This document shows, in pieces, positions 18,001 to 24,000 of a DNA stretch of 64,000 bases. This stretch comes from Ruditapes philippinarum. Taxonomy: Eukaryota. Location of the stretch: assembly GCF_026571515.1 (NCBI RefSeq), contig NW_026862168.1, positions 62,001-126,000 of the forward strand. Direction: 5' to 3'. Made by a program: the position numbers. Each line of letters begins with the position of its first letter. Position 1 is the first letter of the stretch.

Positions 18001-21000
18001 ATTTACGATGTATTCATTCTTGCTAGCAAGCGCATGCGTATATGCGAAGTTTAACGCGTAGGTATAAACTACGATTTTATCAATGAACTGTTATTTTTTG
18101 TTTTCTTTAAAGGAATGTAGAGTCTATTATTTCATGAAAATGAACGATTTGGAAATTTCAAAGCATTTAAACAACTTTGCAAAACACTATTTTAATGATG
18201 TGTAGTCGGAATGTAACGCTACTGCAGAATGAAGAACTAGTTTCTATAGCGGTTTTTATCCGGGAGTGGATGTTGTTCGGTAATGCATTAAACCTGTATC
18301 TTTTCTGAGATATAGCTTATAACTCTGTATACATTGCAAGCAATGTATACAATAAAGATGAGGCTAATTGCATCACATTTGGGAAACGGTATATCAGCAA
18401 GTTTTCATACATCTATATGTCTGTTTCTAACCAATATCCCTGGGTGAGAAATTTTTGTATTGCTTGACCCAAAGTGATTTTAAGAAATATATTTATAGAT
18501 GTCGTGTTGATGTTACTGGAGATATTTGGCTTAATTATTGGCTAAGTTGTATCTAGACCTCTTCATGCAGTCAAAGCGATCGCGTACGGTCTAGCCATAC
18601 CAGGGCTATATGAATTTCTCGTTCTTGAGGTTTTTGTAGGCTGTGTATTATAATTGAGCTGAAAAGAAGAAAAGTGAAACTATTAATAGCATATGTAAAA
18701 CATCAAAAAATACCATCACATAATTATTAAGAACTATTTCTATACGTTTTTAATTTTGCTTTCTCTTTCCATTAAAAAATCTAGAGCGAACTCTAATAAC
18801 TCTAACTATATTAAATGGACTTGTCCATCTTTGAATCTGGAAGGTACCATTTATCTTTTTAGGGAAATTTACTGACTGAACCCCATAATCGGACGGCATA
18901 TACGTGCTGACTAATCTTGCAGACAGTTGGTGAAGTTAGAATTTGTTAAATGAAAAGAATGATTTAAGAAATTTGTGAAATTTAGGTAGTAAAATTGTAA
19001 ACATTATATCAACTGGTGGGCATGCAAGTAGACTAAGCTGTGCTGTGTTAATGACCATATCCCAAAGTTTACTCCTCAACTTATTGGTTGTTATCGTGGG
19101 CTCATCTTGAGTAATTTGTCAACAAAAACAGTGATTTTAAAAATGCTTTATCACTGCGGTATACCGTACCCCGGATATTGCTCGATATTATGAGGACTTT
19201 CATCCCATTTCGCGACTTTGAACGGGGAACGAAGGTTAGTTCAGCGACGATATTTTCCAAACTAATGGCTATTTCATTTCTCTCAACGGGTTTTATATAT
19301 CTAGAGGTATTTCTGTAGCTCTAAAAGACGTAAAAGTATTACAGGTATTTGTAAAATTGATTAAACTACCCCTAAACGATCCGCTGCTCACTAGAAAATA
19401 CTGACCGCGATACTGTAGAATCGTTAGAAATTATTATATCACCAATATAAAAAAAATTGAATCGAGCATTTTTTTTATTCTCAATCCAAGTATGCCTTGT
19501 CCAAATTTCAGGCAAAAAGTGTGAAAGTACAAAAAGATACAGGCCAAAAAAGATACAAGAAAGTGTACCGAGTATTGATTTTAAGTGTACAGAGTATTGC
19601 AAAATAGCCCAACTTTAGTGTACAGAGTATTGCAAAACAATATGAGCACATTAGTATGGAAAATCGATATTTTTGTCTAATTTTCACGTCTGTTTATCGA
19701 TTCAATTTCATTTTTCTGATAATGTACTGTTTATATGATATTTATTCAAATATTTCAGATTCAACAATGCATTTTCAATTTTTCATTGTTATTCCTGTTC
19801 TTTTCCTACTGGCAAATGCAGAGATTTAATTTCCCATTTGATTGAAAATCACACTATGGATGAAATAAAGTGTGTGCAGGGTCGAAAGCAGGGTAGAACC
19901 ATCAAAATTGACGATAAAAAACTTTAAATACATGTCTCAAGAAACTTTGATAAAGAAGACCCATCTCTGAAAAGGACAAGAATAAAAAAACATATTTAGA
20001 TGACATTAATAATAGGTTTTTACAGGGCAAGTTTGACTTAAGAAACATATCGACGCACTTCATAAAATATTGGCCAGAGGGCTTATGCCGCCCAAGCATG
20101 CCGGTATCGTCTTAACCTTTTACTGCATGAGCATAATGCAAGTTCAAACTGCTATGAAACGATAAAAAATGCTTCAATACTGATCAAACTGGGCACAAAT
20201 GTTAGCTAGACCATAGCCTGTGGAATAGCATGCTCAATTTTAAATTTTCAGTTACCATGGCAACGGGGGGGGGGGGGCGTCTCAAAATTGCCAAAAATCT
20301 CTATTTTGCGTTGTTTTTCCCCATCAAAACTGATTTCAAGGTGCACCAACTTCTCAGTTGATTGAGATAAAGTCTAAGGTTTTCGGCGTTGATTACACGG
20401 TACCTTTAAATCGACCTGAGGCCATTTAGCCCCCCCCCCCCACAAGATCCAAGTCTTCTCGACGATTAGAGGGGCTGCTGCCCCACTTCAAACCCCCAAA
20501 CAGAAGGGTGCACATCCCCCCTGTGTAACCCCCTTGATATACTTTTTAATGGGGGTGGCGCCGAAAAAGTGATCGCTCTTTTGAACAACATTTCTCAAAC
20601 GAAAAAAACAGTGTTGGGGGCCTATATAGGAAACGCTGCGCTATTTTTACACTAGGCCTCAAAAGGGATGGGGATGTAAAGCTTTCAAAACACGCCTTTA
20701 TGAGGTAAAAGGTTATAAGGAACATAACCTTTTTATTGCATCTGCTGCCCTTTATCATAATCTTATCAAAATCCATTATTCGGTTTTTTTGAGCTGTACT
20801 TGCTCGGCAGTCATACGGAAACCTTTGCTAAGGCGTAACAAAATTTCACGTGCAGACGGTCTGCCGTTGCTAGAGTGCAGGTGCAAAATGCCCGAAAGTT
20901 ACCTTTATATGGATTTTTGGCATAGTAGGAAGTCGGTTGATATTAGATATTGGTACACTTGCTCAATACCGTCTAATATTGACAATCTTGAGGAAGTATT

Positions 21001-24000
21001 AATGCACTTTGGATGTTTTTTTTACTATTTAAAGTAAGATATGCAATAATTTTTAACAAATTCTGGAAAGGTTGATCCTTCGATAGCAACGAGAACATTT
21101 TAAACACAGAAAACTGAGATTTTTCACGAGCAGGAATGAAAATCTGGATTATTCGCAGATATTTCCAGTAAAGTACCTCCGAATTCTGCATATTCTGCAC
21201 ATATAGTGTAAATAAGTATACACAGTAAGAAATATTTAAAATTAAATGTGGTAAATACTTTGTGTTTACTGCTTGCATTTACTCTTTATTGATAACCAAT
21301 ACTCGTTACACTCAAAAGCAATACTCGTGACACCGGCGGGCAACTCCAAAGCAATACTCGGTACACTGACATGTGTATTTATTCTCAAAATGCACTGTCG
21401 TCTGAGGTTTTATTGTTGATTGAACATTTACAACATAAACATTATCATCATTATCACATTTCACTCGATTCAAGTTTTTCTTTTAAGGATGTATATGCAC
21501 AAAACATCAAAATTGACTGATCCGAGCTCATTTATCACGTGAGCAAAGAGTCGAATTTTACCTCCTAATTACATTTCAAAGCTATTTCTCAACATTTTTG
21601 GGGTTTCATTAACTAGAGAAATTATCGAAGTATTTGTATTTCTACAAAATTTATATCTAACCAATTCAAAATGACTAAATATCGTCACTTAACATACCTT
21701 CTTTCCTCGTTCAAAGTCGCGAAATGGGATGAAAGACCTCATAATATCGAGCAATATCCGGGGTACGGTATACCGCAGTGTTTATGCTCAGAAAACAAAA
21801 CCAATTTGTTATCAACGGAAGTAATCCGAAAATACAACATAAGCAAAGGTTTTTAATTTCACCTTGCGTAAAAGTGGTTTCAGTTACCTTTTAAATAAAT
21901 ATGCATTACGTCGTTTTACAAAACCGTTGATGACGGCGACGAAGGTGGTGATATATCAATTCCTAGTTCACTTAGGTCAATGTCCCAGAAACCACTAGGA
22001 ACCTTTTTCATTTGACCTTGAACTTGATTTGTTCCATTCACTTCCACCGAACTTTTAACGCTTGTATCTATGTCATTGTCAGTATTGTGAACGTCATATG
22101 CCTTTATATTTCTTAATTCGTTGTGTAAATTTTCCCATAAAGTCGAATTACTTATCCAAATCGGGGCATGTTTTGGACTTTTGGTTGCCTCCGAATTTGG
22201 TAAAATTTTATCCGAATCCGAGTTGACGTTCACTTCCGGTTCAATTTTAGACTGGTCTTCATGCCCATCCCATATAGGATCGATTTTTGATGGATCTATT
22301 TGTCCGTCCCATATTGGGTTACTTTCAGATGGTTGTACTTCTTGATGTTGAGACTGTATCCATAAGGACCCAGCCAAGGATCCGGAGTAGGTCGACTGAC
22401 TTCCTTGGTGCTGTATAGCTCGCTGAAACACCGAAACATGAACGCTCAAGCTCACTGTCTGTTTATTATATATAGTTAGTGCATTAAAAACTTAAAGAAA
22501 TAATCGTATGTGCGCCAGGTTCGTGCATTGACATTTGAAACGACTGATTTTGGTGTACAATTTTATTAATTCTAACAAAGTAACAAATATATAACAAATT
22601 TACAAAATGAGACCAATTATTTACGCTATATAAATTCTCAGACAGACGTTCTGATTGCCATAGTCGGTAATGATTGTCTGATATTAGTTTGTTTTCAAGC
22701 TTTGAAAGTAGCTCAAAATTGTCCGCTGTTCGACATTAAAACAGCTCAGAATTGCCGCCTGTTTGACACTTTATAGCGATGTATTAATACTATTATTTCA
22801 TTTTATCACATTGTATTGTTTCGTTCAATTTACAAATTTGTGCTTGGAATTCAATTGTGGCAGTGCAATGAAAAATACAATTATCTAATTCCACCACCGC
22901 TTTTTAACAAGTGTTATTTTGCAAAGCAAAGCTGTGCATGACTGATAACTGTGTTAGTCATAATATCCGGTCGACTTGTCCAGCCACTTCATGCTATTAG
23001 TATTTCCATTATTTGATGCTGTGCTTAAATGTCCATTACTCAATTTATGTTCCAGTCTAAATGTTTGTAAGAGTTGTCTTACTTTGATAATCCTTGCGCG
23101 CTTCCGGCGCTCGCGCACAATGCAGACGACAACAATCGTAACGACAACTGCTACAACAACAGCAACACAAGCGACGGATATTCCTACAATAGCACCGGTT
23201 GATAAGCATTCTGGCATGCTTTCATCAGTTCCATCCGGGCAGCTCGGATGTTGGTCGCATTGTAAAGAACGCCGTATGCAGTGTGAACTCGATTTGCATT
23301 GGAATTCATCTTGGGTGCATGGCGCTGTAAAGCAACAGTAATTTAAGTAATGTGCAGTTTAGTATATTTAGCAAGGATTTTTTATCGACGCTTGCGGACA
23401 CGTGAAAATATTTGACATGCGAGTTTTTAATGCGTGGGTATAATTGCGCAATCATGTGCGATGTAATTATATTACGTTTGTACAAGACAAATGATTTTTC
23501 TAGCGTCATTATTGGGTATGAATTAGTTTACTATAAATGGCAGTTTTAAATGGAATATGAGATTTTAATAAGTTAAACACAGCTATTATTTCAGGCAAGT
23601 TTTGATTGTAATGCAAATAGATATATATGTCTTACCGTCACTAAAAGCTGTTATCACAAGTTTCATTCCACTCCCGGAAATCAAGTCAGTATTGCTGACG
23701 AATCTCATTACGAAAAATCGACCGGAAGTCAAAATGTACTTCTTTTTTGGTTTCGTGCACACCGTCGCCGGCAAATCTAGAAAAATGAAATAATGTCGTG
23801 TAATATATGGTGAAACAAATAAAGCGCAAACAAGGCAAAAATATATAATGGACCACTTGACAGAATCAGTTAAACATTAACGATTTATTTTAAAAGATGG
23901 AAAGATAGGAGGGCTGTAAGACAAAGTTTATGTAGACATGAAATACTGCGGATTCTACATTTCATATGATTATATGAATTTCATGATTGATGTCACTCTG

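What the first reader, a model, noticed from the sequence alone, without database searches (positions are those of the whole stretch)
19152..21780. Transib/RAG-like transposon: CAC ends, 5-bp TSD, long TIRs
Seen: a 2.63-kb element with TIRs starting CACTGCG (5/7 match to the RSS heptamer CACAGTG), identical for 44 bp and similar to about 100 bp, with an exact 5-bp TSD (TTTAT). Known: CAC-initiated TIRs plus a 5-bp TSD characterise Transib and RAG/ProtoRAG transposons, whereas Chapaev has 3-4-bp and CACTA 2-3-bp TSDs. Inference: this is a non-autonomous member of that lineage. Its intact ends and TSD suggest a related autonomous partner may exist in this genome.
Basis: partly seen in the sequence, partly recalled or inferred. 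Interest (0 to 1): 0.75.

Follow-up and report, generated by a model that had tools for sequence, protein, structure and literature searches.

The report
Non-autonomous CAC-ended DNA transposon copy
This is an ordinary, non-coding copy of a cut-and-paste DNA transposon in an invertebrate-type animal genome; its ends and 5-bp duplication fit a Transib-type element best, but nothing links it to RAG.

Summary
Window 19152-21780 is a 2629-bp element with CACTGCG...CGCAGTG ends. Its inverted repeats are identical for 44 bp and 97/104 overall, and it is flanked by an exact TTTAT duplication.

It is a non-autonomous class II transposon:
- None of the 223 ORFs of 55 aa or more in the window matches a transposase or RAG family.
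- It belongs to a multicopy family. Seven short ORFs from unnamed metagenome contigs map only to 19722-20112, a decayed ORF with an N-terminal C2H2 finger.

The superfamily is not settled.
- CAC ends plus a 5-bp TSD favour a Transib-type transposase (about 0.5).
- That rests on one TSD. A true 4-bp TSD would look like 5 bp 28% of the time.
- The TIR lacks both the A-rich Transib nonamer and the RAGL AAA block.
- The target is AT-rich.
- Mirrored triplets of a 15-bp subterminal motif resemble CACTA architecture.
- A 5-bp TSD is not exclusive: hAT5 and Ginger2 also make them, and a second CAG-ended element with a 5-bp TSD lies at 4975-7806.

No autonomous partner was found. No eukaryotic genome or repeat library was available to search. 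Interest is low.

The parts
19152..21780 (+). Whole non-autonomous transposon copy (2629 bp). Orientation follows the decayed ORF.
   Evidence: TIR pair plus TSD. No transposase domain in 35 internal ORFs of 40 aa or more at E<=1.
19147..19151 (.). Left target-site duplication, TTTAT.
   Evidence: Read directly. Chance of a 5-base match is 0.0017-0.0019.
19152..19255 (+). Left terminal inverted repeat. It starts CACTGCGGTATACCG and contains the palindrome CGGTATACCG at positions 6-15.
   Evidence: 44 bp identical, 97/104 overall. GTATACCG sites are listed.
19563..19632 (+). Left subterminal block: three copies of the 15-bp motif GTGTACMGAGTATTG, 411, 433 and 466 bp from the left end.
   Evidence: (D2, I2-I9), 30 and 72: 6 matches in the window at 2 or fewer mismatches against 0.09 expected, all inside the element.
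19722..20112 (+). Decayed ORF remnant in three frames. It has an N-terminal classical C2H2 finger (CX2CX12HX4H, 19739-19924) followed by a second conserved segment (19954-20112). This is the only part shown to be shared with other copies of the family.
   Evidence: Weak Pfam hit to zf_C2H2_ZHX (E 0.004, below cut-off). Seven metagenome ORFs map here and nowhere else in the window.
20139..20715 (+). Inner ~577-bp segment that is a separate dispersed repeat. A solo copy lies at 12014-12578 on the minus strand (76% identity). It is either a nested insertion or captured DNA.
   Evidence: No Rfam match and no Pfam match.
21297..21366 (-). Right subterminal block: three inverted copies of the same 15-bp motif, 414, 447 and 469 bp from the right end.
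   Evidence: (D1).
21677..21780 (-). Right terminal inverted repeat.
21781..21785 (.). Right target-site duplication, TTTAT.
   Evidence: Read directly.

Best explanation
Window 19152-21780 is one copy of a multicopy family of non-autonomous cut-and-paste (class II, TIR) DNA transposons in a metazoan genome. It encodes no transposase.

Inferred mechanism: a DDE transposase supplied in trans binds the 44-104-bp TIRs. It probably also binds the three 15-bp subterminal sites at each end, whose GTGTACCG core resembles GTATACCG at TIR positions 8-15. It cuts at the CAC/GTG termini and inserts with a 5-bp stagger, which produced the TTTAT duplication.

CA...TG termini with a 2-5-bp TSD place the element in the CACTA-Mirage-Chapaev-Transib (CMCT) group. 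Within that group the 5-bp TSD makes a Transib-type enzyme the most likely mobiliser.

The element keeps a decayed 5' ORF with a single classical C2H2 finger, probably the vestige of the first exon of the ancestral autonomous element. It also carries an unrelated ~577-bp dispersed repeat inside.

Shown: ends, TSD, motif arrays, multicopy status, lack of coding capacity. Inferred: the transposase type, binding to the motifs, and the origin of the ORF.

My confidence is about 0.95 that it is a non-autonomous TIR transposon, about 0.8 that it belongs to the CMCT group, and about 0.5 that it is Transib-type. The field value refers to the last.
For: - TIRs and TSD are far beyond chance.
- 0 of 223 window ORFs of 55 aa or more and 0 of 35 element ORFs of 40 aa or more match a transposase or RAG family.
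- Seven related short ORFs from other contigs (P0003, P0005, P0006, P0009, P0015-P0017) map only to 19722-20112. One matches at 41 of 42 residues, so near-identical copies exist.
- The 15-bp motif occurs 6 times against 0.09 expected, all inside the element at mirrored distances.
- GTRTACCG occurs 8 times in the window, 6 of them in the element, against 1.39 expected.
- Literature, passages read: Transib has a 5-bp TSD and invariant CAC (PMC1131882). CMC elements have 2-4-bp TSDs and the CMCT clade shares CA..TG ends (PMC12730594; bioRxiv 10.64898/2026.08.26.747230).
- With flat priors over 2-, 3-, 4- and 5-bp CAC-ended groups, the observed exact 5-bp match gives about 0.73 for a 5-bp enzyme (my arithmetic).
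Against: - Only one TSD was observable.
- There is no A-rich nonamer: TIR positions 30-38 match AAAAAAATC at 3 of 9, and of the two key A positions only one is A.
- The heptamer matches the Transib consensus at 4 of 7.
- The two arms are symmetric over 44 bp, so there is no 12/23-like asymmetry.
- The insertion site is AT-rich (23% GC over 35 bp), opposite to the GC-rich preference reported for Transib.
- Subterminal repeat arrays several hundred bp from the ends are described for CACTA (PMC8978399). They were not mentioned for Transib in any passage I read.
- No Transib-like coding remnant was found.
- No longer protein carries the family's ORF: 0 hits among proteins of 187-2000 aa. In the length-unrestricted search, every hit of 152 aa or more shared only 25-37% identity. 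Of those 8, I scanned 7 against Pfam: 5 were generic multi-C2H2 proteins, 2 (P0010, P0013) had no family, and none matched a transposase family. P0012 was only read.
- A recent preprint shows that TSD length and TIR ends vary even within Transib and should not override transposase homology.
Confidence: 0.5

Rival explanations
1. It is a non-autonomous CMC element (CACTA/EnSpm or Chapaev). Its true TSD is 3-4 bp (TAT or TTAT), and one or two adjacent T's match by chance in AT-rich DNA.
For: - The CACTG start and invariant CAC...GTG ends fit Chapaev and CACTA (PMC4079192; PMC12730594).
- Mirrored subterminal repeat triplets match the CACTA 'subTIR' architecture (PMC8978399).
- The AT-rich target does not fit Transib.
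- The chance extension has probability 0.28 for one base and 0.077 for two.
Against: - The flanks match over exactly 5 bp.
- The TWA TSD set between A and T, found for all Chapaev3 elements examined, is not present.
- The ORF remnant has a simple CX2CX12HX4H finger. It lacks the eight-ligand Chapa/NZD zinc domain described for Chapaev.
- No CACTA transposase Pfam match was found.
Confidence: 0.25
2. It belongs to another or an undescribed superfamily that makes 5-bp TSDs. This could be a hAT5-like or Ginger2-like element, or a new CMCT lineage with long TIRs, subterminal repeats and a C2H2-finger protein.
For: - hAT5 (5 bp) and Ginger2 (4-5 bp) also give such TSDs.
- The TIR beyond CAC resembles neither the Transib nor the RAGL consensus.
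- The family ORF has no detectable relative with a known transposase domain.
Against: - The third base of hAT termini is reported as always G; here it is C.
- Integrase-like elements such as Ginger end TG...CA (recalled, not from a call); here the ends are CA...TG.
- Absence of a detected transposase is expected for any non-autonomous copy, so it does not argue for novelty.
Confidence: 0.2
3. It is a non-autonomous RAG-like (RAGL/ProtoRAG) element, mobilised by a RAG1L-RAG2L pair.
For: It has CAC ends and a 5-bp TSD. Non-autonomous RAGL elements are reported in an oyster and several deuterostomes (PMC7204232).
Against: - It matches the protostome RAGL TIR consensus CACTWMCAAACKTYKBB at 9 of 17, and the conserved AAA at positions 8-10 is GTA here (consensus against sequence).
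- No RAG1, RAG2, kelch or NZD match occurs in any of the 223 window ORFs. The only RING exon (12702-12989) is a generic C3HC4 finger 6 kb away with no RAG1 core near it.
- The ORF remnant is not NZD-like.
Confidence: 0.05

Closest known systems
Non-autonomous Transib elements (Transib superfamily; Kapitonov & Jurka 2005, PMC1131882)
   Same: CAC...GTG termini, an exact 5-bp TSD, no coding capacity, and dependence on a transposase supplied in trans.
   Different: No A-rich nonamer at TIR positions ~30-38. The heptamer matches CACAATG at 4 of 7. The target is AT-rich rather than GC-rich. The TIRs are ~104 bp against a 38-bp conserved terminus. It has subterminal 15-bp repeat triplets. Transposase homology is untested.
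CACTA/EnSpm elements
   Same: CACTG-type terminus and subterminal repeat arrays several hundred bp inside both ends (PMC8978399).
   Different: CACTA makes 3-bp (2-3-bp) TSDs; this one is 5 bp. No CACTA transposase remnant is present.
Chapaev / Chapaev3 (CMC)
   Same: Invariant 5'-CAC...GTG-3' termini and occurrence in animals (PMC4079192).
   Different: Chapaev TSDs are 3-4 bp, and Chapaev3 uses TWA between A and T. The ORF remnant lacks a Chapa/NZD zinc domain.
RAGL / ProtoRAG transposons
   Same: CAC termini and a 5-bp TSD.
   Different: The TIR A-rich block at positions 8-10 is absent (9 of 17 to the consensus). No RAG1L or RAG2L sequences are present. RAGL non-autonomous copies are reported as few, whereas this family shows at least 8 copies.
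hAT5 group of hAT transposons
   Same: 5-bp TSD.
   Different: hAT termini have G at position 3; this element has C. The CAG-ended neighbour at 4975-7806 fits hAT5 better.

Membership tests
Transib superfamily | 5-bp target-site duplication | tested here: met
   TTTAT on both sides, but for one copy only. A 4-bp TSD would mimic this with probability 0.28.
Transib superfamily | TIR begins with the invariant 5'-CAC | tested here: met
   CACTGCG...CGCAGTG. The feature is as stated in PMC1131882.
Transib superfamily | RSS-like 38-bp terminus: CACAATG-like heptamer, ~22-23-bp spacer, A-rich nonamer AAAAAAATC | tested here: not met
   The heptamer matches at 4 of 7. Positions 30-38 (CTCGATATT) match at 3 of 9, and positions 20-28 (12-spacer register, CCGGATATT) are also not A-rich (against the consensus). 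Individual family TIRs in that paper's figures could not be seen.
Transib superfamily | [quoted passage not shown] | tested here: not met
   The 35-bp site is 23% GC and the TSD is 0% GC. This is a single insertion, so the evidence is weak.
Transib superfamily | Mobilised by or derived from an element encoding a Transib/RAG1-core-like DDE transposase | not testable with these tools
   There is no transposase in the window (0 of 223 ORFs). No longer relative of the family ORF was found.
RAGL / ProtoRAG | TIR consensus CACTWMCAAACKTYKBB with conserved AAA at positions 8-10 | tested here: not met
   9 of 17 positions match, and positions 8-10 are GTA.
RAGL / ProtoRAG | Convergent RAG1L-RAG2L genes in autonomous copies | not testable with these tools
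   None are in the window. The genome is not available.
Chapaev (CMC) | 3-4-bp TSD with CAC...GTG termini | tested here: inconclusive
   The termini are met. The TSD reads 5 bp in one copy, which is compatible with 4 bp plus a chance match at p=0.28.
Chapaev (CMC) | N-terminal Chapa/NZD dual zinc finger in the transposase | tested here: not met
   The family ORF (P0003) has one CX2CX12HX4H finger and no second CxxC pair (against the description). It may not be part of a transposase at all.
CACTA/EnSpm | 3-bp TSD | tested here: not met
   5 bp are observed. The chance of two extra matches is 0.077.
CACTA/EnSpm | Subterminal repeat arrays inside both ends | tested here: met
   Three copies of the 15-bp motif lie at each end, 411-469 bp inside.
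hAT5 | hAT-type terminus with G at position 3 | tested here: not met
   Position 3 is C. The rule comes from the PMC1131882 Figure S7 legend.

The most novel reading that the evidence does not exclude
The family represents an undescribed lineage of the CACTA-Mirage-Chapaev-Transib clade. It would combine a Transib-like 5-bp stagger with CACTA-like architecture: ~100-bp TIRs, mirrored triplets of a 15-bp subterminal binding site, and AT-rich targets. Its autonomous form would start with a classical C2H2 finger rather than a Chapa/NZD domain. That would make it an intermediate between the CMC and Transib/RAG branches.
Probability: 0.15. Interest if true: 0.45.

Novelty: new member of a known kind. 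Interest (0 to 1): 0.2.

Why it matters
As it stands, this is routine repeat annotation: one more non-autonomous DNA transposon in an invertebrate-type genome, probably lying just downstream of a CUB-LDLa membrane-protein gene. It bears on RAG and V(D)J origins only if the autonomous partner proves to be a Transib or RAGL transposase with unusual ends, and nothing found here indicates that.

The near-identical sister copy (41 of 42 residues) and the intact 44-bp ends suggest the family moved fairly recently. A transposase source may therefore still exist in the genome, and this family is a reasonable handle for finding it.

Tried and rejected
1. Autonomous partner in the window. A Pfam scan of all 223 stop-to-stop ORFs of 55 aa or more and of 35 element ORFs of 40 aa or more at E<=1 found no transposase or RAG family. 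It found only host exons and sub-threshold hits.

2. Other copies in the window. The TIR 23-mer at 3 or fewer mismatches hit only the two ends. A self-BLAST showed only the inner repeat shared with 12014-12578.

3. Organism or gene identification with the 405-aa ORF P0002. The 'longer' search gave 0 hits, so that search was wasted. Rfam and tRNA scans of the window gave 0. The organism stays unidentified.

4. Longer proteins carrying the family ORF. There were 0 among proteins of 187-2000 aa. One search returned 12 hits. Four are short family copies, and the other 8 share only 25-37% identity. I scanned 7 of those 8 against Pfam, plus P0003. Five were generic multi-C2H2 proteins. P0010 and P0013, like P0003 itself, had no family at E<=0.001. 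P0012 was fetched but not scanned; read by eye it is a repeated C2H2-finger protein.

5. Prokaryote genome collection. Peptide patterns gave 39 stretches, 0 confirmed. The TIR 20-mer gave 0. This was expected, since the collection holds no eukaryotes.

6. PDB sequence search with the family alignment. Only chance-level hits appeared (E>=0.5).

7. AlphaFold2 model of P0003. Mean pLDDT was 40.9, too poor to use, so no fold search was run.

8. Protein-atlas look-alikes. Only generic C2H2 clusters appeared, below the recognition level.

9. Rfam at E<=1 on the element gave 0, so the inner repeat is not a recognisable RNA-derived SINE.

10. A full-text search for the first 14 bases of the TIR found 0 papers.

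11. hAT with an 8-bp TSD, Mutator with 9 bp, TA or TTAA targets, and shifted boundaries were rejected by reading the flanks.

Not checked:
- No Repbase or Dfam library was available.
- Figures and supplementary TIR lists of PMC1131882 and PMC7204232, and Table S2 of the 2026 preprint, were not seen. My TIR comparisons therefore use only the consensus strings printed in the text.
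Full report
**Observation.** Window 19152-21780 (2629 bp) begins CACTGCGG and ends CCGCAGTG. It is flanked by TTTAT at 19147-19151 and 21781-21785. The inverted repeats are identical for the first 44 bp and match at 97 of 104 bp (93.3%, E 1.4e-39), after which similarity is lost. The first 23 bases of the TIR occur only at the two ends, even with 3 mismatches allowed, against 0.00 expected in 100 shuffles. A 5-base flank identity has probability 0.0017 from composition. Empirically it occurs at 119 of 61340 positions at this spacing (0.0019). 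No alternative boundary gives a TA, TTAA, 8-bp or 9-bp duplication (read).

**Setting.** The window is AT-rich (33% GC) with no CpG depletion (observed/expected 0.95). It contains no N and I do not take it for human.
- The minus strand carries two paralogous sets of CUB and LDL-receptor class A plus transmembrane exons: CUB at 24070-24369 and 37928-38167, and LDLa plus TM at 22954-23358 and 35829-36230.
- From established knowledge of these domains, that architecture indicates a metazoan.
- There is also a RING exon at 12702-12989 and an APH-type kinase exon at 57996-58463.
- The element lies 135 bp beyond the stop of a 191-aa minus-strand ORF (21916-22491). That ORF could be the last exon of the nearer CUB-LDLa gene, which is inference only.
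- The organism could not be identified.

**Anatomy.**
- *Subterminal motifs.* Inside the TIRs there are three copies of a 15-bp motif, GTGTACMGAGTATTG, on the plus strand at 19563, 19585 and 19618. Three inverted copies lie at 21297-21366. They sit 411-466 bp from the left end and 414-469 bp from the right end. At 2 or fewer mismatches these are the only six matches in the window, against 0.09 expected.
- *Shared core.* The motif's core GTGTACCG resembles GTATACCG within the palindrome CGGTATACCG at TIR positions 6-15. GTRTACCG occurs 8 times in the window, 6 of them in this 4% of the sequence, against 1.39 expected. I read these as likely transposase-binding sites, which is inference.
- *Decayed ORF.* Between 19722 and 20112 lies a decayed ORF split over three frames. 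Its first part (19739-19924) has a classical CX2CX12HX4H finger. Its only Pfam signal is a sub-threshold match to a C2H2 model (E 0.004).
- *Inner repeat.* Positions 20139-20715 are 76% identical to 12578-12014 on the other strand, with no similarity in the flanks. This is therefore an independent dispersed repeat, either nested in or captured by the element. It matches no RNA family.

**Coding capacity.** None of the 35 ORFs of 40 aa or more inside the element matches a transposase at E<=1. None of the 223 stop-to-stop ORFs of 55 aa or more in the whole window matches a transposase, RAG1 or RAG2 family (28, 150, 45; the list comes). The element is non-autonomous and no partner lies within 64 kb.

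**Family.** A length-unrestricted HMMER search with the 62-aa finger ORF against 1.84 billion representatives gave 12 hits at E<=0.001.
- Four are short ORFs of 56-106 aa at 71-86% identity. A word-indexed search with the longest (P0003) added three more. All seven come from unnamed metagenome contigs of about 1-1.5 kb.
- By tblastn they map only to 19722-20112 of this element. P0003 bridges the two window ORF pieces, and P0017 is identical at 41 of 42 residues.
- The element therefore belongs to a multicopy family with some very similar members. Its ancestral form had an ORF of at least 106 aa beginning with the finger. The copies are broken in different ways, as expected for decaying non-functional DNA.
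- The other 8 hits share only 25-37% identity with the query. I scanned 7 of them, plus P0003, against Pfam. Five were generic multi-C2H2 proteins. P0010, P0013 and P0003 itself had no family, and none matched a transposase family. P0012 was fetched but not scanned.
- No protein of 187-2000 aa carries the family ORF, and there is no relative among PDB sequences.
- The AlphaFold2 model was unusable (pLDDT 40.9), so I ran no fold search. Atlas look-alikes were generic C2H2 clusters.
- The prokaryote genome collection held nothing.
The ends and TSDs of other copies remain unseen.

**Classification.** From passages I read:
- Transib is defined by 5-bp TSDs, an invariant CAC, a 38-bp RSS-like terminus (CACAATG, spacer, AAAAAAATC), GC-rich targets and a ~700-aa transposase. 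hAT termini always have G at position 3 (PMC1131882).
- Protostome RAGL TIRs follow CACTWMCAAACKTYKBB, with a conserved AAA at positions 8-10, and have 5-bp TSDs (PMC7204232).
- Chapaev has CAC...GTG ends and 3-4-bp TSDs, and Chapaev3 uses TWA between A and T (PMC4079192).
- CACTA has subterminal repeat arrays and a 3-bp TSD (PMC8978399).
- hAT5 makes 5-bp TSDs and the CMCT clade shares CA..TG ends with 2-5-bp TSDs (PMC12730594). Ginger2 makes 4-5-bp TSDs (PMC10045372).
- A 2026 preprint reports Transib relatives with 3-bp or TA duplications. It argues that TSD and TIR features should not override transposase homology (10.64898/2026.08.26.747230).

Measured against these features, the element:
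- meets CAC and the 5-bp TSD;
- fails the nonamer (3 of 9) and the RAGL A-block (GTA; 9 of 17 overall);
- matches the Transib heptamer at 4 of 7 and the RSS heptamer at 5 of 7, a level reached by chance about 26% of the time given CAC;
- sits in an AT-rich target (23% GC over 35 bp);
- has CACTA-like subterminal arrays.

Its ORF remnant is a simple finger, not the eight-ligand Chapa/NZD domain of Chapaev and RAG1L. Transib N-termini are reported as diverse and lacking that domain (PMC4411706; 10.64898/2026.01.24.700457). The finger therefore neither supports nor excludes Transib.

**Weighing.** With one copy, a true 4-bp TSD would look like 5 bp with probability 0.28, and a true 3-bp TSD with probability 0.077. 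With flat priors over CAC-ended groups this gives about 0.73 for a 5-bp enzyme. The missing nonamer, the AT-rich target and the subterminal arrays pull this down. My estimates are:

| Reading | Probability |
|---|---|
| Transib-type | ~0.5 |
| CACTA or Chapaev with a chance extension | ~0.25 |
| Another or undescribed lineage | ~0.2 |
| RAGL | ~0.05 |

That it is a non-autonomous TIR transposon is about 0.95.

**A caution from the same window.** A second TIR element at 4975-7806 interrupts a satellite array of ~165-bp units. Comparison with intact units shows a 5-bp duplication, CCCGG. Its ends are CAGGCC...GGCCTG-like, matching at 15 of 17. Position 3 is G, as in hAT, which fits hAT5 better than Transib. 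In this genome a 5-bp TSD alone is therefore not diagnostic.

**Verdict.** However, the Transib assignment is only the leading hypothesis, and the RAG/ProtoRAG association has no specific support. Non-autonomous Transib-like and CMC elements are commonplace in invertebrate genomes. This is at most a new member of a known kind, and its interest is low unless the autonomous partner proves unusual.

Noticed in passing
window 4975-7806: A second non-coding TIR element (2832 bp) has ends CAGGCCTAGACATTAAC / CAGGGCTCGACATTAAC (15 of 17 matching). It is inserted in a satellite unit with a 5-bp duplication, CCCGG, verified against intact units. A CAG terminus plus a 5-bp TSD suggests hAT5. No Pfam hit in its ORFs.
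   Followed up: partly
window 4675-4974 and 7801-8805; 9228-10048; 2453-2980: There are tandem arrays of ~165-bp units at 4675-4974 and 7801-8805, the first array being split by the element above. A second array lies at 9228-10048. A 265-bp tandem duplication at 98% identity lies at 2453-2980.
   Followed up: no
window 12014-12578 (minus) and 20139-20715: A ~577-bp dispersed repeat is present once alone and once inside the transposon, at 76% identity. It contains G and C homopolymer runs and has no TIRs, RNA-family match or Pfam match. Its nature is unknown.
   Followed up: partly
window 22954-24369 and 35829-38167, minus strand: Two paralogous gene copies each have a CUB exon followed by an LDLa plus transmembrane exon, suggesting a tandem duplicate of a NETO-like single-pass membrane protein. 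The ORF 21916-22491 ends in TVL and may be the tail exon of the first copy.
   Followed up: partly
window 12702-12989, plus strand: This is a C3HC4 RING-finger exon (Pfam E 2e-8). It is generic, with no RAG1-like sequence nearby.
   Followed up: partly
window 57996-58463, minus strand: This exon matches the APH phosphotransferase family (E 1.2e-5).
   Followed up: no
window 51237-51660: A block of short (~22-bp) tandem units beginning CACGATTTCAACTT is arranged as an inverted pair, giving many nested TIR-like pairs flanked by AATT.
   Followed up: no
window 3391-4452 and 29487-30704, plus strand: Two long open frames (353 and 405 aa) have no Pfam match. The second found no longer homologue. 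They could be large exons of lineage-specific genes.
   Followed up: partly
protein P0003 (unnamed metagenome contig): Its source names this family ORF 'phage anti-repressor protein'. Given its mapping to a eukaryotic transposon and its C2H2 finger, that name looks like an annotation error.
   Followed up: no
window 19174-19189 (TIR positions 23-38) and the mirror in the right TIR: GATATT occurs twice, 10 bp apart, inside the TIR (CCGGATATTGCTCGATATT). It falls at the registers where a 12- and a 22-bp-spaced nonamer would lie, but it is not A-rich.
   Followed up: no
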